Virus record (IMG/VR): IMGVR_UViG_2844540631_000002
Location: 14,262 to 78,261 of that record
Reading direction: 5' to 3' (one strand)
DNA length: 64,000 bases
DNA from: a virus
Taxonomy: Duplodnaviria > Caudoviricetes
Both the position numbers and the translations under genes were made by a program. Each line of letters starts with the position of its first letter. Position 1 is the stretch's first letter. Positions 27,343-36,584 of the stretch are shown here, one piece after another. The notes under the pieces were generated by a model. It was not told the DNA's origin, made no database searches, and was given only the letters and a program-made list of their open reading frames with translations.

Positions 27343-27545
27343 CGTTCGCCGTCCTCCACTGAGTATGGTAGCGTACCGCATCGCTAGGCCAATGCCGTCG
27401 CTTAATGCAGGAACACCCCTTCGGACGGTGTCCTCCGCGTATGTGAAGACGGAGGCATGCTCTGCCGTCTATCTGTTCTTGTCGCGCGGTACCTCGCCTA
27501 CGTCCTGCCCATGGTCGTCCACCTCACGTGCGAAGTAGCTGGCCT

Positions 27546-28241
27546 GTGAGCATCGCCGAGGACCTTCAGAAGCTGGAGCCGGGCGCCCTCGTGGAGCTCT
27601 TCGTGCTGGATGCCACGGCGCTGCCCGGCGGCGGCATCAGCTACTTCCACGCGGGCACCAACGGACTGGGCGGGCCGGTGGTGTGGCAGGGCGCGGAGTA
27701 CCAGCCCTGGCCCGTGGAGGCGCGGGGCTTCGAGAAATCCGGCACGGGGCGCCTGCCTCGGCCCACGCTTACCATGGCCAACGTGGCGGGCACCATCGGC
27801 GCCCTGGCCCGGGACTTCAACGACTTGCTGGGCGCGCGCGTCCTGCGCAAGCGCACCTTCGCGCGCTACCTCGACGCGGTGAACTTCCCCGGCGGCGTCA
27901 ACCCCACCGCCAGCCCGGTGGAGGCATTCCCCGATGACGAGTTCGTGGTGGACCAGAAGACGTCCGAGTCGAAGCACTTCATTGAGTTCGCGCTCGCGGC
28001 GCGGTGTGACTTGGACGGCATCCGCATCCCGCTGCGCGTCATCACGCAGATGTGCGGGTGGGAGTACCGGAAGGAGGGGTGTGGGTACGCGGGCCCGCCT
28101 GTGGCGAAGGTGGACGACAGCCCGACGACGTCGCCAGCGGAGGACAGGTGCGGGAAGCGGCTGGGGAGCTGCACGCTGCGCTTCGGGGAGACGGGAGTGT
28201 TACCGTTCGGGGGCTTTCCTGGCTGTGGACTTCTCAGGTAG
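27546..28241 (+). CDS. Tail tip protein L
   Basis: LQKLEPGALVELF; RKRTFARYLDAVNF; four Cys C.WEYR..GCGY...C.K....C. Confidence 0.92.
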   Translation: MSIAEDLQKLEPGALVELFVLDATALPGGGISYFHAGTNGLGGPVVWQGAEYQPWPVEARGFEKSGTGRLPRPTLTMANVAGTIGALARDFNDLLGARVLRKRTFARYLDAVNFPGGVNPTASPVEAFPDDEFVVDQKTSESKHFIEFALAARCDLDGIRIPLRVITQMCGWEYRKEGCGYAGPPVAKVDDSPTTSPAEDRCGKRLGSCTLRFGETGVLPFGGFPGCGLLR

Positions 28242-28256
28242 CGAAGGAGGAATGAG

Positions 28257-28877
28257 GTGCCTTGCAAGCTTGACCTCACGGGCCAGACATTCGGACGCCT
28301 CACGGTGCTGGAAGAGGCTCCGAAGAAGGGGAAAGAGTCGGCTTGGCGGTGTCGCTGTGTCTGCGGCACCGAGACGATTGTGGCGGTCGGCAAGTTGAGG
28401 GGTGGCACTACCGCATCGTGTGGATGCATCCGTCAGGAGCGACTCGCCGAGCGGAATCGCACGCACGGCTTGACGGGGACTCCGACACATCGGAGTTGGA
28501 AGGCGATGTTGTCGCGATGCACGAACCCCAAATATCCTGGGTTCCAGAAGTACGGGGCCCGCGGCATCACCGTCTGTTCGCGTTGGCGCTCATTCGAGAA
28601 CTTCCTTGTGGACATGGGGGAGCGTCCACCCGGGAAGACGCTCGACCGCATCGACAACAACGGCCCTTACTCGCCAGAGAACTGTCGCTGGGCGAGTCTC
28701 CGAGAACAGAGTCTGAACAAGCGTTCCAACCGACGCATCACCATGGATGGGATGACGTTGACCCTTTTGGAGTGGTGCGAGCGCCTCAATCGAAAGCGGG
28801 CAACGGTCTATGACCGACTCCGGCTGGGATGGTCCATTGAGCGGGCCCTGACTGAGCCGGTGAGTGGCGGCAGTTGA
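28257..28877 (+). CDS. Free-standing HNH homing endonuclease-like protein
   Basis: [12 protein letters not shown]; WRCRCVCG; YGARGITVC; [19 protein letters not shown]. Confidence 0.85.
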
Positions 28878-28930: not shown

Positions 28931-29719
28931 TTAGGTGGCACTCGCCGCTTTTGCCGCCATGGCCGATGGCGATGAAGGCTGGATCGCAATGTTGCGCACT
29001 TCATAGGTAATACCTTGTTGAGATGGAATCGTTGGAGTGGGAATCAAGAAGTCCGTGGATACGAGCACTAGATATCGATACGTAGCTAGTTCGAAGCCGG
29101 CGAGTGTCTCCCCAGAGTATCTCTCGGCCTGGACATGTGCTTCCCTTGCCTTTTTAATGGGAGCATCGCCCGCGCGTACGACTTTCCACTCGGTAAGGAC
29201 CATTGCGTCAGCTACTTGTGCGGCTTCACGTTCGATTAGGGCCTGCCCCAAGACGAGGTCGGTCTTGCCGCCTGTTGAGTTTGCCTTGAATGCCCAGATG
29301 CTGTGAAGAAGCATGTGAACAGCCCCGAGCTTCTCGCACGCTTCTTCAGCGCGGGCTTCCTGAAGCGCGCGCATCCACTTCGTCTGGATATCGACGTCAG
29401 CAACAAGGCTTCGTTGTAGGTGTGTAAACGCGCGATCTACTGCCCGGCGCGCCCGTGCATTCTTGTCAGTCAAGAAATAGTCAACTTGCGCACGAACGGT
29501 GCTGAGGCGACATGCCATATGAAATACGCCCTCCGCGCTTGTTGAGCCGGAGCCTTGGAACTCCATGTCTGCATCAGCCGCGCAGATGAAGTTGTCGAGA
29601 GCTTCCTGGGCGCCCGGGTGCAGGTGAGATTTGAATTGTGTGTTGAACTGCTTTAGGAGTGCGTATAGGTCTCTGAGTTCATGTTTCGCAGTTTTGTTGA
29701 GCGTAGCTGTGCTCGACAT
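28931..29719 (-). CDS. Low-GC moron, putative PD-(D/E)xK-fold nuclease
   Basis: EEACEK...GKTDLVL...LTEWK...AHVQAERY. Confidence 0.55.
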   Translation of the reverse strand: MSSTATLNKTAKHELRDLYALLKQFNTQFKSHLHPGAQEALDNFICAADADMEFQGSGSTSAEGVFHMACRLSTVRAQVDYFLTDKNARARRAVDRAFTHLQRSLVADVDIQTKWMRALQEARAEEACEKLGAVHMLLHSIWAFKANSTGGKTDLVLGQALIEREAAQVADAMVLTEWKVVRAGDAPIKKAREAHVQAERYSGETLAGFELATYRYLVLVSTDFLIPTPTIPSQQGITYEVRNIAIQPSSPSAMAAKAASAT

Positions 29720-29920: not shown

Positions 29921-30265
29921 TCAGGCGGCAGGCACGTGGACGCCCTGGATGGGAGCTTCTGCCGGGTGGCTCGCCTTCAAGTAGCGGATGTACCAGAGCG
30001 CGGCGCCGACGATGAAGCGCTCGGTGGGCATGCCCAGGTGATGCGCCGTGGACACCGCCGTTGCGTACTCAGCCTCGCCCATCTCCGTCTTCATCGTCAT
30101 GGAGAGGGGCTTGATCGCGGCGGTGCGGGCGGCAACAGGCAGGCCCCCACAGTCCACCGAGGCGTGCTCGATCAAGCGGGCGGGCGTGAGCCCCGTCAGG
30201 CTCGCGGCGGCCAGGATGGCGGCGGCCTCCTCGGGCATGGCTGGCAGGGAGAGAGACACAGGCAT
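29921..30265 (-). CDS. Hypothetical protein (possible RHH-type repeats)
   Basis: Antisense ORF; start uncertain. Confidence 0.35.
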   Translation of the reverse strand: MPVSLSLPAMPEEAAAILAAASLTGLTPARLIEHASVDCGGLPVAARTAAIKPLSMTMKTEMGEAEYATAVSTAHHLGMPTERFIVGAALWYIRYLKASHPAEAPIQGVHVPAA

Positions 30266-30371
30266 GAGGTAGTCCTTTCCGGAGTGGAAGCAGGGAGCCT
30301 CGGCGCCGCGAGAGAATCGGTCAAGGTTTGACGGTGCGGAAGCAGTCCACCCTGGCCAGCAGAGTTGGGGG

Positions 30372-31103
30372 ATGGACCCCTCTGGCCTGTCGTCGCTGGT
30401 GGATGTCGTCATCGAATCCGCTCGGGCCCACGCTCGAATTGAGTACCCACGCGAGTCGTGCGGCCTCGTGGTGCTTGTGAATGGCATGCCACAGTACGTC
30501 GCGTGCCGTAATCAGGCCGAGGGGCAGGCCCACTTCATCCTCCACCCGGAGGACTACGCGCGGGCGGAGGCGGAAGGGGAGGTGGTGGCGGTGGTGCACT
30601 CCCACCCCAACGCGGCCCCGGAGCCGAGCGAGGCGGACCGCGTCAGCATGGAGCGCTGGGGCCTGCCCTGGCTCATCGTCAACGTGCCCGTGGGCCACTG
30701 GCGGCTGTGGCACCCCACCGGGTACCGGCCGCCGCTGGTGGGCCGCCCCTTCAGCCACGGCGTCCTGGACTGCTTCTCCCTCATTCGCGACTACTACCAG
30801 GAGCGGCTGGGACTCGAGCTGCCCGACTTCCACCGGCCGGACGGCTGGTGGGACAAGGGCGGCAACCTCTACCTGGACGGGTACGCCGAGGCGGGCTTCG
30901 TGGACGTCACCGGCCAGGCGCTGCGCGAGCATGACGTGCTCCTCATGCAGCTGCGCGCGCCGGTGCCCAACCACGCGGGCGTCTACCTGGGGGCGGACGT
31001 CGTCCTCCACCACCTCCAGAATCGCCTCTCTGGAAGGGAGACGTACTCGGGCTTCTGGGAGCGAATCACCCGGAAGGTCGTCCGACACCGCACCCTATGC
31101 TGA
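30372..31103 (+). CDS. Tail tip assembly protein K (JAB + NlpC/P60)
   Basis: PRESCG; VHSHPNAAPEPSEAD; DCFSLIRDYY; NHAGVYLG. Confidence 0.92.
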   Translation: MDPSGLSSLVDVVIESARAHARIEYPRESCGLVVLVNGMPQYVACRNQAEGQAHFILHPEDYARAEAEGEVVAVVHSHPNAAPEPSEADRVSMERWGLPWLIVNVPVGHWRLWHPTGYRPPLVGRPFSHGVLDCFSLIRDYYQERLGLELPDFHRPDGWWDKGGNLYLDGYAEAGFVDVTGQALREHDVLLMQLRAPVPNHAGVYLGADVVLHHLQNRLSGRETYSGFWERITRKVVRHRTLC

Positions 31104-32170
31104 CAACGGTGGTACTCGGAGGGCCGCTGGGCCGGCACTTCGGCCGCGTCTGGCGGTTGGACTTGAGCGTGCCTTCGCCCGCCGAGGCCGTGCGCGCCCT
31201 CTCGGCGGTGTGCGAGGGCTTCGCGCGGTATCTGGTGGAGCACAGCGAGCCGGGCTTCCACGTCTTCGTCGGCAAGCGCGACGTGGGCCAGGACGAACTG
31301 GCGCGCCCGGCTGACGCGCCCGTCATCACCGTCATTCCGGCCCTGGCCGGGGCGAAGGTGGGCGTCTTCCAGGTGGTGATGGGGGCCGTGCTCATCGCAG
31401 GCGGCGCGGTGCTCTCGGCCTACGGCTTCGGTGTGGGTACGCCCCTCATCACCATGGGCGCATCCCTGGTGGTGGGCGGTGTCTCGCAGATGCTCTTCGC
31501 GCCGCCCGCACCTGCGGCCCCGGACGAGGAGCCGAAGAACAAGCCCAACTACGCCTTCAACGGGCCGGTGAACACGCTGGCGCAGGGCCACCCGGTGCCC
31601 ATCTGCTACGGCGAGCTGGAGGTGGGCAGCTGCGTCATCTCCGCGGGCATTGTCACCGAGTGGAGCGAGGGCGGCGGCTTCGGTGGCAAGTACGGCAGCG
31701 GGCAGACGGGGCCGGGCGGGCAGGGACCCTCGGGCGGTGGGTGTCCGGCACCATGGGTGCCCATTCTCCTTGCGGACGGGCGGGAGGTGCCCGCCGGCGA
31801 GGTGGAGGTGGGCATGCGCGTCCTCACCCAGCACGAGACGACGCTGCGGTGGGGCGCGTACCTCGTCACCGACGTGGCCCTCTTGGAGGCGGAGTGCTGG
31901 CGGTTGGAGCTGGAGGACGGCCGCGCCTTCGTGGGCACGTACAACCACCGCGTGCGCACCGAGGCGGACTGGGTGGAGCTGCGGCACCTAGTGCCCGGCA
32001 CGCTGCTGCTGGGCGCCCAGCCCGGCGTGGTGCGGGAGGTGGTGGCGTGCGGACGTGGGCCGGTGGTGCGCATCACCGTGGACGGGGCGCACACGTACCA
32101 GACGCTGAGCTTCCTCTCGCACAACGCCAAGCGCGCAGACCCGGAGGCACCGCATGAAGTCGAAATCTGA
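31097..32170 (+). CDS. Tail tip assembly protein I with C-terminal Hint domain
   Basis: gpI motifs (AEAVRAL; NYAFNGPVNTLAQGHPVPICYGE); Hint from CPAP (31742) with TYNH to SHN (32125). Confidence 0.88.
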   Translation: MLTTVVLGGPLGRHFGRVWRLDLSVPSPAEAVRALSAVCEGFARYLVEHSEPGFHVFVGKRDVGQDELARPADAPVITVIPALAGAKVGVFQVVMGAVLIAGGAVLSAYGFGVGTPLITMGASLVVGGVSQMLFAPPAPAAPDEEPKNKPNYAFNGPVNTLAQGHPVPICYGELEVGSCVISAGIVTEWSEGGGFGGKYGSGQTGPGGQGPSGGGCPAPWVPILLADGREVPAGEVEVGMRVLTQHETTLRWGAYLVTDVALLEAECWRLELEDGRAFVGTYNHRVRTEADWVELRHLVPGTLLLGAQPGVVREVVACGRGPVVRITVDGAHTYQTLSFLSHNAKRADPEAPHEVEI

Positions 32171-34670
32171 GCTGGGCCCCGTCATCGGCTACGGCGGGGC
32201 GAATGGGGGCAAGGGCGGTGGCGGCGCGCAGCGCACGCCCGTGGAGCTCCCGGACACGCTGAAGTCCACCAACTACGCCCGCGTGCTGGACTTGCTCTGC
32301 GAGGGGGAAATCGTCGGGCTCGTGGACAAGCTGAAGTCCGTCTACCTGGACGGCGTCGTCGTCCAGAATCCCAACGACACCTACAACTTCCGCGACGTCA
32401 CCCTCTACGACGTGCAGGGGACGCAGGGGCAGGAGTACATCCCTGGCTTTCCCTCCGCGGAGGCGGAGTTCTCCGTCAACACGGAGGTGAAGCGCTACGA
32501 GCCCGTCGTCCGCACCGTCAGCGACGCCAACGTGGACGCGGTGCGCATCACCGTGCAGGTGCCGCAGCTCACCTTCCAGAGTGCGCTCACCGGCGACTTG
32601 ATGCCGTCCATGGTGCTCATCGGCATCGACGTGCAGAGCAACGGCGGCGGCTTCGTTGAGCAGGACCTGGAGGGAGCGGGTGTCATCGCCGGCAAGTGCA
32701 CCAGCCCCTACGAGCGGACGTACCGTGTGGAGCTCACCGGCAGCGCGCCGTGGGACATCCGCGTGCGGCGCCTCACCGCGGACAGCACGCAGGCCAACCT
32801 GCAGAACAAGACGCTGTGGAAGTCCTACGCCACCCTCATCGACGAGAAGCTCAGCTACCCCAACAGCGCGCTGGTCGCCCTCCAGGTGTCCGCGCACCAG
32901 TTTCAGGCGGTGCCCACGCGCTCGTACCGGATTCGGGGCCTGAAGGTGCGGGTGCCCAGCAACTACAACCCGCTGACGCGGGAGTACTCGGGCACGTGGG
33001 ACGGCACCTTCAAGGTGGAGTGGACGGACAACCCTGCGTGGTGCTTCTACGACTTGCTGACGACGCGGCGCTACGGCCTGGGCCGCTTCCTCAACGAGGG
33101 GCACGTCGACAAATGGGGCCTGTACACCATCGGCCGCTACTGCGACGAGTTGGTACCGGACGGGAAGGGCGGCCAGGAGCCGCGCTTCCGCTGCAACCTC
33201 TACCTCCAGTCGCAGGCGGACGCGTACCAGGTGGTGAACAACCTCGCCTCCGTCTTCCGAGGCATGACGTACTGGGCCAGCGGCGCGGTGTACGTCGCCC
33301 AGGACGCGCCCCGGGACGCCGAGTACCTCTTCACCCCGGCCAACGTGGTGGACGGCCTCTTCACGTACTCCAGCAGCGGCCGGCGTGCGCGCCACACCGT
33401 CGCGCTCGTCACCTGGAACGACCCGGCCAACCACTACAAGTCCGCGAAGGAGTACGTGACGGACGAGGACGGCCTGCGCGAGTACGGCTACAACCCCACC
33501 GAGGTGGTGGCGCTGGGCTGCACCTCGCGCGGCCAGGCGCAGCGGGTGGGCCGGTGGCTCCTCTTCACCGAGCGGCTGGAGACGGAGACGGTGGTGTTCC
33601 GGACGGGCCTCGAGGGCGCCCTGCGCAACCCCGGCGCGGTGGTGAAGCTTCAGGACCCGTACCGGGCCGGCCGCCGCTGGGGTGGGCGGGTGGTGGCCGC
33701 CACCGCCACCCAGGTAGAGCTGGACGCGGACGTCACCCTTGAGGCGGGGAAGACGTACTCCCTCTCCGTGGTGATGCCGGACGGGGCGGCGGTGGAGCGC
33801 GAGCTGGCGCCCGCGGCGCCGGCGCCGTACCGGGCCCTCACCGTCGCCACGCCCTTCCCCGTGGCGCCCGCCCGGAATGCCGTCTGGGTGCTCGCGGCGT
33901 CCGACTTGGCGCCCACGACGTGGCGCATTCTCAGCGTGGCCGAGGTGGAGCCGCACCTCTACGAAGTCACGGCGCTGCGCCACCACCCGGGCAAGTACGA
34001 CGAGGTGGAGCTCGGCGTGAAGCTGCAGCCGGTGCCCACCTCCGTGCTGCCTTCCTCGGCGCCACCCGCGGACCTCGTGCTGGGGGAGAGCCTCTACAAG
34101 ACGACGAATGGCGGGTTGAAGGTGTCCCTCAACGCCCGGTGGGCGCAGCGCCCCAGCGCCACCGAGTACGTGGTGCGCTGGCGGGTGGACGGGGGCAACT
34201 GGACGACGGTGACGGGGGTGCAGTCGCACTTCTGGGAGTTGCTGGACATCAACCCCGGCGCGTACTCCGTGCAGGTGGCGGCCGTCCTCAACGGCTTCGT
34301 CACCGCCTATTCCGAGGCCTCCCTCAACGTGCGAGGCAAGCTGGCGCCACCCTCGGACGTCGTGGGCTTCGGCTACACACTCAACGGCAACACGGCCACG
34401 CTGCGGTGGACGGAAATCCCGGACCTGGACCGGGACACCTACGAGCTGCGCTACGGCGGGACGAATTGGGACAACGCCACCCCCATCTCGAAGGTGCGCG
34501 CCACCGCGCACGAATGGCCCGTGCCTGGGCCTGCGGACCACGTCGTGCGCGTGAAGGCCATCGACACCACGGGCAATCCCTCCACCAACGACACCACCGT
34601 CACCGTCCGCGCGGCGCCCACTACGCCCGCGTCCGTCACCATGACGGTGTCCTCCACCCCTCCGCCGTAG
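32154..34670 (+). CDS. Tail tip protein J (central fibre core with FN3 domains)
   Basis: DLLCEGEIVGL; YPNSAL; WTDNPAWCFYDLLT.RYGLG; EPRFRCN. Confidence 0.93.
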   Translation: MKSKSELGPVIGYGGANGGKGGGGAQRTPVELPDTLKSTNYARVLDLLCEGEIVGLVDKLKSVYLDGVVVQNPNDTYNFRDVTLYDVQGTQGQEYIPGFPSAEAEFSVNTEVKRYEPVVRTVSDANVDAVRITVQVPQLTFQSALTGDLMPSMVLIGIDVQSNGGGFVEQDLEGAGVIAGKCTSPYERTYRVELTGSAPWDIRVRRLTADSTQANLQNKTLWKSYATLIDEKLSYPNSALVALQVSAHQFQAVPTRSYRIRGLKVRVPSNYNPLTREYSGTWDGTFKVEWTDNPAWCFYDLLTTRRYGLGRFLNEGHVDKWGLYTIGRYCDELVPDGKGGQEPRFRCNLYLQSQADAYQVVNNLASVFRGMTYWASGAVYVAQDAPRDAEYLFTPANVVDGLFTYSSSGRRARHTVALVTWNDPANHYKSAKEYVTDEDGLREYGYNPTEVVALGCTSRGQAQRVGRWLLFTERLETETVVFRTGLEGALRNPGAVVKLQDPYRAGRRWGGRVVAATATQVELDADVTLEAGKTYSLSVVMPDGAAVERELAPAAPAPYRALTVATPFPVAPARNAVWVLAASDLAPTTWRILSVAEVEPHLYEVTALRHHPGKYDEVELGVKLQPVPTSVLPSSAPPADLVLGESLYKTTNGGLKVSLNARWAQRPSATEYVVRWRVDGGNWTTVTGVQSHFWELLDINPGAYSVQVAAVLNGFVTAYSEASLNVRGKLAPPSDVVGFGYTLNGNTATLRWTEIPDLDRDTYELRYGGTNWDNATPISKVRATAHEWPVPGPADHVVRVKAIDTTGNPSTNDTTVTVRAAPTTPASVTMTVSSTPPP

Positions 34671-34679
34671 AGAGAAAGC

Positions 34680-36584
34680 ATGCGCTCACGCGAAAAAGAG
34701 CTTCAGGGCGGCATCGACGTGGACGTCACGCCGGGCGAGCCGAACCCCCGTCTCCTCAAGCCGCGGTACTTCGACATTCGCTGGGAGCACGTCGAGACGC
34801 TGCCCACGCACCTCCTGCTGGGCTTCAGCGTGGCCGTCTACGAAGGGGATGACCCCAACAACACGGACGCCTACCTCCTGGAGCCAGTGCGCGTCGGCCC
34901 CTCGGAGCGCCGCACAGTGGTGTCGCTGCGCGTGGCCACCACGGTGGAGGTGAAGTGCGCCGTCCAGGCCCTGTACTCCAACGGCACGCAGAGCAGCTGG
35001 CGCGTCCTCGGTGGCGCGGTGGCGGCGGACCCGGACATGGTGAAGCTGGCCACCGCAGACTTGAAGAATGTCCCCGCCGCGGCCGCGCAGGCGGCGTCCC
35101 GGAATGCCGTGGGCGCCTTCACCGAGTCCTTCGAGCGCTCGCCCTTCGACTTGGGCAACTGGGAGCGCAACCCATTGCTGGCACCGCCGGCAGTGTCCCT
35201 CGTCTCCGGCCAGGGCTATTCCGGGGGCAACGCCCTGCGGTGCACCAACGCCGTGTGGATTTACTCCACAGTGAAGCTGCCGTACGACCCGTCGAAGCTG
35301 TACCGCCTGCGCTGCCGCGTGCGTCAGTTTCAGGAGCCCACGTCCGGCGGGAAGGCGGTGTACTGCGGATTGGTGGGCTGGGCGGCGGACGGCGTCACCA
35401 TGGTGAACGCGGCCGGCCTCAACGACTTGGGCAGCCAGCACTACTACTGCATCTCCGGCGCGCTGCTGCCGGCGTCCACCGGCTATAGCGAATTCACCGG
35501 CTGGGTGAAGGGACTGTCCGCCAACGTCACGGAGAACTGGCCCTCGCAGGACCCGCGCAACCCCCGGCCCATGCACCAGGCCACGCGCTACGTGTCCCTG
35601 GTGCTCATCGCCAACCTGGACGCCGGCAACGGCGTGACGGACTTCGACTCCGCAGTGGTGGACGTCTTCGACGAGTCGGCCACCCCGCGCGTGTACACGG
35701 CTCTCAACCCGGACGGGAGCATCAGCTACAACGTGGGCATCTCCGATGGGAGTGGGGCGCCGCGTACCATTGCGAAGGGCCGCCAGGCGCAGCTCGCCGC
35801 GCACGGGGCCTATGTGGCCTTCAACCCGCCGTTTCAGAACACGCCCATGGTGCTTCTGCGCGGTGGCCTCACGCACGAGCCGCGGGCGAAGTGGGGGGCC
35901 ACGGGCAGCGGAAACGAGACGGGGGCCTACAACGCGGCCCTGCCGACGTATGACGACACCCAGGCGATTATGAATGGGGGCAGCGGCTTCACCCTGCGCG
36001 CTCGACTGCGCCAGCGCGGCGGCACCGTCACGGCCCGGACGAACAACCCCGCCAGCTCGTCCAACCTCGCCACCGGCATCGGCTCCACGGTGGAGGTGGT
36101 GCTCAGCAACGCCCCGGCGACGAACGACCAGTACGCGCTCCGTTTCAACGCCATCATCTACCTGCTCACGCCGCCGCGCACGGGGGACCTGGGGGCGGGT
36201 GGGAGCTGGGAGCCGGGGTCGGCCGTGGGCAGCATCGTCGTAGCGCTGGACAGCCTGGACGTGGGGCAGTCCTGGGTGGAGCGCGCCACGGTCACGCTCT
36301 GGGCCAACTCCAACAACAACACAGTGAACTGGGTGCAGTCCGTGAACACGCACATCGGGGAGGTACTGACGGCGGCGGCGCCGGGCCTGGGCGCGGCGGA
36401 CAGGCTGCGCCTGCGCATCAAGTCCGTGTCCGTGCCGACGGGCAGCAACCAGCCCACCGCGCACGTCTGGCACTCCAGCGTGGATGCTGGGGCGGGCGTC
36501 ACCTACAGCACCTCGACGGACCAGTACGCCTCGAAGACGCCGGACGTTGGGGACGTGCTCTACTGGGAGGCCTTGGACGCATGA
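34680..36584 (+). CDS. Putative receptor-binding / tail fibre protein
   Basis: Beta-rich; FN3-like N-terminus then CBM-like jelly-roll (KLPYDPSKLYRLRCRVRQ); directly after J. Confidence 0.65.
   Translation: MRSREKELQGGIDVDVTPGEPNPRLLKPRYFDIRWEHVETLPTHLLLGFSVAVYEGDDPNNTDAYLLEPVRVGPSERRTVVSLRVATTVEVKCAVQALYSNGTQSSWRVLGGAVAADPDMVKLATADLKNVPAAAAQAASRNAVGAFTESFERSPFDLGNWERNPLLAPPAVSLVSGQGYSGGNALRCTNAVWIYSTVKLPYDPSKLYRLRCRVRQFQEPTSGGKAVYCGLVGWAADGVTMVNAAGLNDLGSQHYYCISGALLPASTGYSEFTGWVKGLSANVTENWPSQDPRNPRPMHQATRYVSLVLIANLDAGNGVTDFDSAVVDVFDESATPRVYTALNPDGSISYNVGISDGSGAPRTIAKGRQAQLAAHGAYVAFNPPFQNTPMVLLRGGLTHEPRAKWGATGSGNETGAYNAALPTYDDTQAIMNGGSGFTLRARLRQRGGTVTARTNNPASSSNLATGIGSTVEVVLSNAPATNDQYALRFNAIIYLLTPPRTGDLGAGGSWEPGSAVGSIVVALDSLDVGQSWVERATVTLWANSNNNTVNWVQSVNTHIGEVLTAAAPGLGAADRLRLRIKSVSVPTGSNQPTAHVWHSSVDAGAGVTYSTSTDQYASKTPDVGDVLYWEALDA

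What the first reader, a model, noticed from the sequence alone, without database searches (positions are those of the whole stretch)
31097..32170. Tail-tip protein I ends in GGG-Hint: a self-processing virion protein
Seen: after a complete gpI and a Gly-rich linker comes SGGG|CPAP (Cys at 31742), an intact TxxH block B (TYNH) and a terminal SHN followed by Ala and a 14-aa tail. Established: a Hint domain with Cys1 and TxxH forms an N-terminal thioester, and a +1 Ala prevents splicing. Inference: gpI is released with an activated C-terminal Gly that may be hydrolysed or ligated to another tail protein or small molecule, a possible new maturation or cross-linking step.
Basis: partly seen in the sequence, partly recalled or inferred. 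Interest (0 to 1): 0.8.

Follow-up and report, generated by a model that had tools for sequence, protein, structure and literature searches.

The report
Self-cleaving Hint cap on gpI
The tail-tip plug protein (lambda gpI type) of this myxobacterial prophage really does carry an intact intein-like "Hint" self-processing domain on its end, but the domain is a movable cap that sister phages carry on other tail-tip proteins, it most likely just cuts itself off, and nobody seems to have studied it.

Summary
Observation confirmed. ORF 31097-32170 (+, 357 aa) is a complete gpI (residues 1-191), a 24-residue Gly-rich linker, a 128-residue Hint domain (Cys216...TYNH...SHN343) and a 14-residue tail that overlaps the gpJ start. 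The fold model (pLDDT 89.6) matches mini-inteins, BIL domains and Hedgehog Hh-C at TM about 0.8.

The domain belongs to a large subfamily: 654 representative proteins. In 158 full copies Cys1, the block-B His and the terminal His-Asn are invariant or nearly so. The +1 residue is almost never a nucleophile, and Lys at +1 or +2 is present in 154 of 158. Two thirds are C-terminal caps with 2-20 residues after Asn. Every annotated carrier is a phage tail, fibre or tip protein. The rest are PT-HINT pre-toxin modules.

Four sister phages with Hint-less gpI carry the cap on gpJ or on the fibre gene instead. Three more distant lambda-like modules have none.

Best reading: a self-removing cap. Ligation or cross-linking is untested, and the cap's promiscuity argues against a gpI-specific role. 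The conserved Lys keeps a BIL2-like isopeptide outcome open.

The scan has found this cap before in sister prophages, with the same verdict. I found no paper describing it.

The parts
31097..32170 (+). gpI-Hint fusion gene (357 aa plus stop)
   Evidence: ORF list and translation. About 16 full-length homologues in Myxococcaceae prophages and metagenomes, down to 47% identity.
31109..31354 (+). gpI N-terminal beta-grasp (ubiquitin-like) domain, residues 5-86, ending ...PALAGAK
   Evidence: Pfam PF06805 Lambda_tail_I E 4.2e-6, above the curated cut-off. AF2 full-length model has pLDDT 83-93 here.
31358..31498 (+). Two hydrophobic helices of gpI (residues 88-134), equivalent to lambda gpI H1/H2
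   Evidence: AF2 helices 88-108 and 114-133. Aligned to lambda gpI in the profile match to 8iyk_I. H1/H2 are predicted transmembrane helices in lambda (PMC11101478).
31499..31669 (+). gpI plug and beta-strand region (residues 135-191) that in lambda threads through gpJ hub domains
   Evidence: PHROG 32 and 8iyk_I alignments run to about residue 191-195. Low pLDDT as a monomer, as expected for a segment that folds by beta-augmentation with gpJ (PMC10721106).
31670..31741 (+). Gly-rich linker GGGFGGKYGSGQTGPGGQGPSGGG (residues 192-215); Gly215 is the -1 residue
   Evidence: Absent from ordinary gpI. A Gly-rich run precedes Cys1 in most relatives: Gly at -2 and -3 in about 70% of 158, including the gpJ and fibre caps. 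pLDDT below 50.
31742..32125 (+). Hint domain, residues 216-343. Cys1 at 31742-31744; block B TYNH at 31937-31948; His342-Asn343 at 32120-32125.
   Evidence: AF2 pLDDT 89.6. Foldseek TM about 0.8 to mini-inteins and BIL domains. Catalytic positions conserved in 157-158 of 158 relatives.
32126..32167 (+). 14-residue C-flank AKRADPEAPHEVEI (+1 Ala, +2 Lys345)
   Evidence: Lys at +1 or +2 in 154 of 158 relatives, and no cap ends at the Asn itself: tails 2-19 aa, mode 5. Disordered in the models.
32143..32147 (+). GGAGG ribosome-binding site of gpJ, lying inside the tail codons (..PEA..), 6 nt before the gpJ ATG at 32154
   Evidence: Read from the sequence. Explains why gpI caps have longer tails than gpJ or fibre caps (inference).
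30372..31103 (+). gpK (JAB/MPN+ peptidase plus NlpC/P60), immediately upstream, overlapping the gpI start
   Evidence: Pfam Prok-JAB E 1e-15 and NLPC_P60 E 9e-13. The HxHx7Sx2D motif HSHPNAAPEPSEAD is visible in the translation.
32154..34670 (+). gpJ central tail fibre / hub protein (838 aa), no Hint
   Evidence: Pfam FNIII-A_GpJ E 1e-38 and Phage-tail_3 E 4e-26. Only one Hint in the whole 78-kb provirus record.

Best explanation
The last 166 residues of this gpI are a portable cassette: Gly-rich linker, BIL/PT-HINT-type Hint domain, and a short x-Lys tail. It acts as a self-removing C-terminal cap.

Proposed steps, all inferred from family chemistry:
1. After folding, Cys216 attacks the Gly215 carbonyl (N-S acyl shift, helped by Thr281/His284).
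2. The resulting thioester is resolved, mostly by hydrolysis or cellular thiols. This releases mature gpI ending ...GPSGGG.
3. Asn343 cyclisation, helped by His342, detaches the 14-residue tail.
4. Mature gpI then serves as the trimeric plug of the tail tip, as in lambda.

The cap is not tied to gpI. In this phage lineage it sits on gpI, gpJ or the distal fibre. Its biological role is therefore generic: a transient folding, solubility or assembly aid, analogous in logic to the self-cleaving S74 intramolecular chaperone of tail spikes, or a tolerated passenger.

Shown here: the anatomy, the fold, residue conservation and distribution. Not shown: that any cleavage occurs, or when.
For: - Hint fold at high confidence, with TM about 0.8 to mini-inteins, BIL2, the Cth BIL and Hh-C.
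- In 158 full domains from an exhaustive search (654 representatives at E<=1e-3): Cys1 157/158, block-B His 158/158, block-B Thr/Ser 141/158, His-Asn 158/158. The +1 residue is Ser or Thr in only 12, never Cys.
- 105 of 158 are terminal caps with 2-20 residues after Asn.
- All annotated carriers among 53 caps are phage tail, fibre or tip proteins (Phage-tail_3, PB4_spike, Phage_Tail_Tip, Mtd_N; PHROG tail, tail fibre and central fibre J).
- Sister phages with Hint-less gpI carry the cap on gpJ (L002, L004), on the fibre after gpJ (L005) or, for the second Hint subtype, on gpJ (L006).
- Hint identity to relatives tracks that of the gpI domains, e.g. 74% against 79-88%, and 60% against 50-68%. 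GC content is the same as the rest of gpI.
- Lambda gpI is an ordered virion protein resolved to residue 222-223 and tightly interwoven with gpJ (PMC10721106, PMC11101478, PMC12617516). A bulky uncleaved domain would have to be removed or hang on the linker.
- BIL domains without a +1 nucleophile give predominantly N- and C-cleaved products (PMC7664689).
Against: - No experimental evidence of cleavage for any member.
- Simple self-removal does not explain why His-Asn and a Lys at +1/+2 are nearly invariant, even in caps with only 4-6 trailing residues. N-cleavage alone, as in Hedgehog, needs neither.
- The cap is absent from most gpI proteins and from 3 of 3 control lambda-like modules. Any assembly role is therefore lineage-specific, or the cap is a passenger.
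- One metagenomic copy (P0008) has its Hint broken by a frameshift. This may be an assembly error.
Confidence: 0.55

Rival explanations
1. Splicing-like rejoining. The thioester at Gly215 is captured intramolecularly by the C-flank, either by the epsilon-amine of Lys345 (an isopeptide, as in Tetrahymena BIL2) or by the alpha-amine freed at Ala344 after Asn cyclisation (as in A-type BIL domains). Mature gpI would then end in the 14-residue tail, and only the Hint would be discarded.
For: - Lys at +1 or +2 in 154 of 158 domains, and in 104 of 105 caps.
- No cap ends at Asn; tails are at least 2 residues, mode 5.
- His-Asn is invariant.
- BIL2 forms a K(epsilon-NH2)-C-terminus isopeptide (PMC8616854) and is among the top structural matches, 6y75, TM 0.79-0.81.
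- BIL domains can ligate without nucleophilic side chains (titles of Dassa 2004 and Aranko 2013, cited).
Against: - In the literature read here, BIL domains give predominantly cleaved products.
- The toxin-bearing members of the same subfamily are expected to release, not re-attach, their C-terminal domain (Pfam PT-HINT description).
- The Lys could instead be catalytic or structural.
- There is no obvious use for a branched 5-14-residue appendix.
Confidence: 0.17
2. One reading: trans-ligation. The Gly215 thioester is passed to an external nucleophile (a Lys of another tail protein, a lipid or other small molecule, or a host envelope amine), giving a covalent cross-link or adduct in the tail tip.
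For: - Hint thioester chemistry allows it. Hedgehog transfers to cholesterol, and BIL2 conjugates its N-terminal domain to other proteins.
- The long flexible Gly linker would let the junction reach partners.
Against: - No adduct-recognition region follows the Hint; only 14 residues do.
- The same cap on gpI, gpJ, fibres and dozens of unrelated tail proteins argues against a specific acceptor.
- The ubiquitin-like domain of gpI is about 130 residues away from the junction, so this is not a Ubl-GG thioester as in BUBL.
- No direct evidence.
Confidence: 0.1
3. Selfish or neutral passenger. The cassette is a mobile C-terminal element that spreads by recombination among tail genes. Its autocleavage merely makes it harmless to the carrier, with no benefit to the phage.
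For: - Sporadic among gpI proteins: 91 of 116 have no extension, and two Hint subtypes were acquired on opposite sides of a 98%-supported split.
- gpI-borne Hints are not one group in the weakly resolved Hint tree. The window's Hint is nearest to Hints on non-gpI proteins P0124 and P0031.
- 3 of 3 control modules lack it.
- An HNH homing-type endonuclease gene lies 2.2 kb upstream.
Against: - No endonuclease is inside or adjacent to the cassette.
- At a C-terminus a parasite needs neither His-Asn nor the flank Lys, yet both are nearly invariant.
- Composition is fully ameliorated.
- 4 of 4 sister phages with Hint-less gpI keep a cap somewhere on the tail tip, which suggests retention.
Confidence: 0.13
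4. Non-catalytic retained domain. The Hint stays attached in the virion as a structural or binding module on a flexible tether.
For: The 24-residue Gly linker could let it hang outside the tip.
Against: The nucleophile and every catalytic residue are conserved across 158 relatives. Domesticated non-catalytic Hints usually lose them.
Confidence: 0.05

Closest known systems
A-type bacterial intein-like (BIL) domains / Pfam PT-HINT PF07591 (e.g. C. thermocellum BIL, PDB 2lwy)
   Same: Hint fold (TM 0.76 to 2lwy; profile E 6e-5). Cys1, block-B His and terminal His-Asn are present, and there is no +1 nucleophile. About one third of the subfamily are internal pre-toxin modules that do hit PT-HINT. 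Reported chemistry is N- and C-cleavage with little splicing.
   Different: This protein does not reach PT-HINT even at E<=10. It is a terminal cap followed by 14 residues, not by a toxin, and its carrier is a virion tail-tip protein. The near-invariant Lys at +1/+2 and the Gly-rich lead-in are subfamily features that the papers I read do not describe.
Tetrahymena BUBL BIL2 domain (PDB 6y75 / 6tmm)
   Same: One of the best structural matches (TM 0.79-0.81). It processes a Gly-terminated upstream domain and can pass it to a Lys amine without ATP (PMC8616854).
   Different: In BUBL the ubiquitin-like domain directly abuts the Hint. Here the beta-grasp domain of gpI is about 130 residues upstream of the junction, and no downstream acceptor domain exists.
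Hedgehog Hh-C / Hog autoprocessing domain (PDB 1at0)
   Same: A C-terminal Hint that cleaves at Gly|Cys through a thioester and is discarded (TM 0.71).
   Different: Hog domains carry a sterol/adduct-recognition region after the Hint and lack the intein-type terminal His-Asn. This domain has His-Asn and no such region.
Canonical mini-inteins (NpuDnaB 4o1r, SspDnaB 1mi8, gp41-1 6qaz)
   Same: Best fold and profile matches, with the same blocks A, B and G.
   Different: There is no C-extein to ligate, +1 is Ala, and it is not inserted in a conserved site of an essential enzyme. It has no homing endonuclease.
Peptidase S74 intramolecular chaperone domain of tail spikes and fibres
   Same: The same logic: a C-terminal domain on phage tail or fibre proteins that removes itself after doing its job. 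This is a functional analogy from general knowledge; a weak S74 hit sits on a tail protein of the Hint-less control module L007.
   Different: Unrelated fold and chemistry (Ser-Lys dyad, trimeric chaperone). A chaperone role for the Hint cap is only inferred.
Bacteriophage lambda gpI (PDB 8iyk chain I)
   Same: Residues 1-191 are a complete homologue in the conserved L-K-I-J gene order.
   Different: Lambda gpI and most homologues stop about 10-30 residues after the ...SAGI.. motif and have no linker or Hint.

Membership tests
Hint (Hedgehog/intein) superfamily | Horseshoe-like all-beta Hint fold | tested here: met
   AF2 pLDDT 89.6. Foldseek gives 66 PDB matches at E<=1e-3, with the listed top ranks all Hint domains (inteins, BIL, Hh-C) and TM up to 0.81.
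Hint (Hedgehog/intein) superfamily | N-terminal nucleophile (Cys/Ser) and block-B T-x-x-H | tested here: met
   Cys216 and T281-Y-N-H284. Conserved in 157/158 and 158/158 (His) relatives. TYNH aligns with tGNH of the Spl DnaX mini-intein.
Hint (Hedgehog/intein) superfamily | Autoprocessing activity | not testable with these tools
   Needs expression and mass spectrometry.
Canonical (class 1) intein | +1 Cys/Ser/Thr on a C-extein that is ligated to the N-extein | tested here: not met
   +1 is Ala344, and only 14 residues follow. +1 is Ser or Thr (never Cys) in 12 of 158 relatives.
Canonical (class 1) intein | Insertion inside a conserved host protein; often a homing endonuclease domain | tested here: not met
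   The domain is appended after a complete gpI. It is a 128-residue mini domain with no endonuclease insert.
A-type BIL / Pfam PT-HINT (PF07591) | Match to the family profile above the curated cut-off | tested here: not met
   No Pfam hit for the domain at E<=10. Only 8 of 53 cap relatives and most internal relatives hit PT-HINT at E<=1e-3. So this is a divergent sister group rather than a scored member.
A-type BIL / Pfam PT-HINT (PF07591) | Terminal His-Asn without a +1 nucleophile | tested here: met
   S-H-N343|A344. His-Asn in 158/158.
A-type BIL / Pfam PT-HINT (PF07591) | Sits just upstream of a C-terminal toxin or variable domain that it releases | tested here: not met
   Only 14 residues follow here. 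105 of 158 relatives are caps with 20 or fewer trailing residues.
Hedgehog-type Hog domain | Adduct/sterol-recognition region after the Hint; no intein-type His-Asn | tested here: not met
   No domain follows the Hint, and His-Asn is present.
Lambda gpI tail-tip (plug / 'tail assembly') protein | Sequence homology over the whole gpI | tested here: met
   PF06805 above cut-off. PHROG 32 E 1.6e-54, profile positions 4-198 of 203. 8iyk_I residues 15-215 of 223, E 4.6e-35.
Lambda gpI tail-tip (plug / 'tail assembly') protein | Position between gpK (JAB plus NlpC/P60) and gpJ in the tail-tip operon | tested here: met
   gpL 27528-28241, gpK 30372-31103, gpI 31097-32170, gpJ 32154-34670.

The most novel reading that the evidence does not exclude
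The cap is a one-shot, ATP-independent conjugation device of phage tails. The Gly thioester made by the Hint is passed to the near-invariant flank Lys or to an outside amine (a tail partner or the host envelope). Tail-tip proteins would then mature with a covalent isopeptide or adduct, which would be a new kind of virion protein modification shared by hundreds of uncultured phages.
Probability: 0.15. Interest if true: 0.85.

Novelty: new variant of a known kind. Interest (0 to 1): 0.58.

Why it matters
Hint and BIL chemistry is well known. A Hint domain as a recurrent C-terminal cap of phage tail-tip, central-fibre and fibre proteins is not in the papers I could search, and neither Pfam nor PHROGs annotates this domain.

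If the cap self-cleaves, it is a new maturation step for siphophage tail tips, whose assembly (the roles of gpI and gpK) is still poorly understood.

If the conserved flank Lys is an acceptor, it would be a natural enzyme-free isopeptide ligation in virions.

Practically, the family offers small (about 128 aa) natural C-terminal self-cleaving tags with a Gly-rich junction. It also marks where tail-gene annotations overstate the size of the mature protein.

Tried and rejected
- **Pfam on the isolated domain and linker, even at E<=10:** nothing.
- **PHROGs on the domain:** nothing.
- **tblastn against 50,697 cultured or deposited phage records:** one weak hit only (34% identity, an uncultured faecal phage). 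No characterised phage can serve as a model.
- **Canonical intein:** rejected. There is no C-extein, +1 is Ala, and there is no endonuclease.
- **Toxin-releasing PT-HINT:** rejected for this gene. Only 14 residues follow, and they contain the gpJ ribosome-binding site.
- **BUBL-like 'ubiquitin-GG-thioester':** rejected. The beta-grasp domain ends at about residue 87 and the junction is at residue 215/216.
- **A gpI-Hint-gpJ polyprotein by frameshifting:** considered from the sequence. gpJ has its own GGAGG and ATG, I saw no slippery site, and the fused +1 residue would still not be a nucleophile. Not supported.
- **'Exactly one cap per tail module':** 4 of 4 sister modules had exactly one. Earlier scan notes report prophages with two caps, so I claim only 'at least one in this lineage'.
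- **Location of the gpI C-terminus (inside or outside the tip):** not stated in the cryo-EM papers I read.
- **The contig of P0021, sister group of the Hint-bearing clade:** no DNA available.
- **Literature searches for Hint, BIL or PT-HINT together with tail assembly protein, tail fibre or phage:** no description of this architecture.
Full report
**What is there**

The window is part of a 78-kb IMG/VR provirus record with about 70% GC. Its closest protein relatives are named by their sources as Pyxidicoccus, Corallococcus and Myxococcus.

The finding lies in a lambda-type tail-tip operon:
- gpL, 27528-28241 (Phage_tail_L, E 3e-69);
- a 2.1-kb insert;
- gpK, 30372-31103 (Prok-JAB plus NlpC/P60);
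- the ORF in question, 31097-32170;
- gpJ, 32154-34670 (FNIII-A_GpJ, Phage-tail_3).

The ORF encodes 357 residues. Residues 1-191 are a complete gpI:
- Pfam Lambda_tail_I covers residues 5-86.
- PHROG 32 'tail assembly protein' scores E 1.6e-54 over profile positions 4-198 of 203.
- A family profile aligns to solved lambda gpI (8iyk chain I) residues 15-215 of 223 at E 4.6e-35.

Ordinary homologues of about 200 aa stop a few residues after the ...VISAGI.TE.. motif. Here the chain continues as follows:
- a 24-residue Gly-rich linker (192-215);
- Cys216 (TGT at 31742);
- a 128-residue domain with TYNH (281-284) that ends SHN (341-343);
- AKRADPEAPHEVEI (344-357).

**It is a Hint domain**

Pfam and PHROGs do not recognise it. 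NCBIfam gives only weak hits to the intein parts of two models.

With an alignment of 19 family members, AlphaFold2 gives pLDDT 89.6. Foldseek matches:
- NpuDnaB and SspDnaB mini-inteins, E about 1e-10, TM 0.79-0.80;
- the Tetrahymena BIL2 domain, TM 0.79-0.81;
- gp41-1 intein;
- the C. thermocellum bacterial intein-like domain 2lwy, TM 0.76;
- Hedgehog Hh-C 1at0, TM 0.71.

A full-length model shows a confident beta-grasp domain, two helices, a low-confidence middle region and linker (residues 137-213), a confident Hint and a disordered tail.

**The family**

An exhaustive HMMER search of 1.84 billion representatives with the 148-residue C-terminal piece found 654 proteins at E<=1e-3 and 345 at E<=1e-10. 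I re-aligned the 158 full-length domains among the proteins returned.

| Position | Finding in 158 domains |
|---|---|
| Cys1 | 157/158 |
| Block-B His | 158/158 |
| Block-B Thr/Ser | 141/158 |
| Terminal His-Asn | 158/158 |
| Positions -2 and -3 | Gly in about 70% |
| +1 | K, V, A, I, L or M in most; Thr 8, Ser 4, Cys 0 |
| Lys at +1 or +2 | 154/158 (104/105 caps, 50/53 internal copies) |

Of the 158 domains, 105 are terminal caps with 2-20 residues after Asn (mode 5, never 0). A further 42 are followed by more than 60 residues.

The internal copies hit Pfam PT-HINT and look like pre-toxin modules, some next to RTX repeats.

The caps sit on proteins of 180-3,000 residues. Wherever Pfam or PHROGs can name the carrier it is a phage tail protein:
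- Pfam: Phage-tail_3, Rcc01698_C, FNIII-A_GpJ, PB4_spike, Phage_Tail_Tip, Mtd_N;
- PHROG: tail protein, tail fibre, central tail fibre J, straight fibre.

On a weakly resolved tree of the Hint domains, cap and internal states are clustered: 12 changes against 44 for shuffled labels, with at least 5 forced by well-supported branches. The cap is therefore a fairly stable architecture and not a series of accidental truncations.

**The cap moves among tail-tip proteins**

I built a tree of 116 gpI domains.
- The CPAPW...TxxH type ('Hint1', which includes the window) is concentrated in one sub-clade of 17 rows.
- A second type ('Hint2': GGG|CV..., block B without His, ending HHN-x-K) sits on four gpI proteins on the other side of a 98%-supported split.

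gpI has thus acquired a Hint cap at least twice.

I fetched the contigs of Hint-less gpI proteins that nest among or beside the fusions.

| Locus | Where the cap sits |
|---|---|
| L002 | End of gpJ (...GGT\|CPAPW...LSHNAKPR) |
| L004 | End of gpJ |
| L005 | End of the fibre gene after gpJ |
| L006 (sister of Hint2 gpI proteins) | Hint2-type cap at the end of gpJ |

Three more distant lambda-like modules have no Hint of either type within 10 kb of gpI. These are an Achromobacter prophage (L007), a Ralstonia prophage (L008) and a metagenomic phage (L009).

The window's provirus has exactly one cap. Earlier notes of this scan report sister prophages with two.

The window's Hint is nearest, after its Myxococcaceae orthologues, to Hints on non-gpI proteins (P0124, P0031) rather than to other gpI-borne Hints (weak resolution).

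Identity to relatives is similar in the Hint and in the gpI domains. GC content is uniform across gpI and the cap at 0.70-0.73, whereas the insert between gpL and gpK drops to 0.53-0.60.

**How it most likely works**

Established chemistry of the family, from the literature:
- Cys1 with block-B Thr/His makes a thioester at the upstream junction.
- The terminal Asn, helped by the penultimate His, cyclises and cuts the downstream junction.
- Without a +1 nucleophile, BIL domains give mostly N- and C-cleaved products (PMC7664689, PMC7765530).

Lambda gpI is a virion protein. It is a trimeric plug in the tip lumen, resolved from residue 101 or 134-135 to residue 222-223, and its C-terminal strands thread through gpJ hub domains by beta-augmentation (PMC10721106, PMC11101478, PMC12617516).

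My best reading (0.55) is that the cap excises itself and leaves gpI ending ...GPSGGG. Its role would be generic: a transient folding or assembly aid like the S74 intramolecular chaperone, or a tolerated passenger.

The extra length of the gpI tails (5-16 residues, against 4-6 on the gpJ caps) is explained here by the overlapping gpJ start. GGAGG at 32143-32147 and the ATG at 32154 lie inside the tail codons.

**What this leaves unexplained**

Simple self-removal does not account for the near-invariant His-Asn plus Lys at +1/+2 in caps with only a handful of trailing residues. Two precedents keep a rejoining outcome open (0.17):
- Tetrahymena BIL2 makes a Lys isopeptide (PMC8616854).
- A-type BILs can ligate without nucleophilic side chains (cited titles).

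The promiscuity of the cap and the absence of any adduct-recognition region make it less likely (0.10).

A purely selfish cassette (0.13) fits the sporadic distribution and the incongruent trees. It fits less well with the flank conservation and with retention of a cap in 4 of 4 sister modules.

**Novelty and context**

I found no paper in the searchable library that describes Hint, BIL or PT-HINT domains on phage tail proteins. Cultured-phage records hold only one weak match.

The scan has already noted the same fusion in several sister prophages. Follow-up agents there reached essentially the same verdict. My tests were run independently on this window. They add three things:
- the placement of the cap on gpI, gpJ or the fibre in two Hint subtypes;
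- the negative controls;
- the counts for the flank Lys.

Everything about activity is inference. No cleavage has been shown for any member.

Noticed in passing
window 28257-28877 (+): A free-standing HNH endonuclease gene (PHROG 374, E 4e-76) lies between gpL and gpK, which are adjacent in lambda. It is the first gene of a 2.1-kb insert.
   Followed up: partly
window 28931-29719 (-) and 29921-30487 (-): Two antisense ORFs (262 and 188 aa) sit in the same gpL-gpK insert. They have no significant Pfam hit and no PHROG hit, and the GC content of the insert drops to 0.53-0.60 against about 0.70 around it. This looks like a moron or defence-type island. Sister modules L004 and L005 also have one antisense ORF at this spot.
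   Followed up: partly
window 30372-31103 (+): gpK has an intact JAMM/MPN+ motif (E..., HSHPNAAPEPSEAD = HxHx7Sx2D). The beta-grasp domain of gpI ends ...PALAGAK (residues 84-87). So gpI may be cut twice: after the Ubl-like domain by gpK (an older prediction recalled from memory, not tested here) and at Gly215 by its own Hint.
   Followed up: no
P0022, P0042, P0056, P0089; L006:14271-14756: A second Hint subtype occurs on gpI and gpJ. Its junction is GGG|CV.. and it ends HHN-x-K or SHNAGSKP. Block B lacks the His (S/T-x-x-A-P-I). It is either a mechanistic variant or a less active form.
   Followed up: partly
P0008 (metagenome, 343 aa): This gpI-Hint copy has its Hint out of frame from about block B onward. 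It is either a decaying copy or an assembly error.
   Followed up: no
P0122, P0129, P0143, P0147, P0173, P0187, P0191: Several non-phage relatives carry two tandem Hint domains of this subfamily in one protein, followed by 60-370 further residues. These look like polymorphic-toxin-type arrangements.
   Followed up: no
L007:6728-8491 and L007:14820-15416: The Hint-less Achromobacter control module has a tail protein with a weak Peptidase_S74 (self-cleaving chaperone) hit. It also has a second small gpI-like ORF (Lambda_tail_I, weak) downstream of gpJ.
   Followed up: no
window 34680-36584 (+): The 634-aa ORF right after gpJ resembles segments of large phage tail and fibre proteins (PHROG 5911, 21973, 19394) and has no Hint cap. 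In sister module L005 the gene at this position carries the cap.
   Followed up: partly
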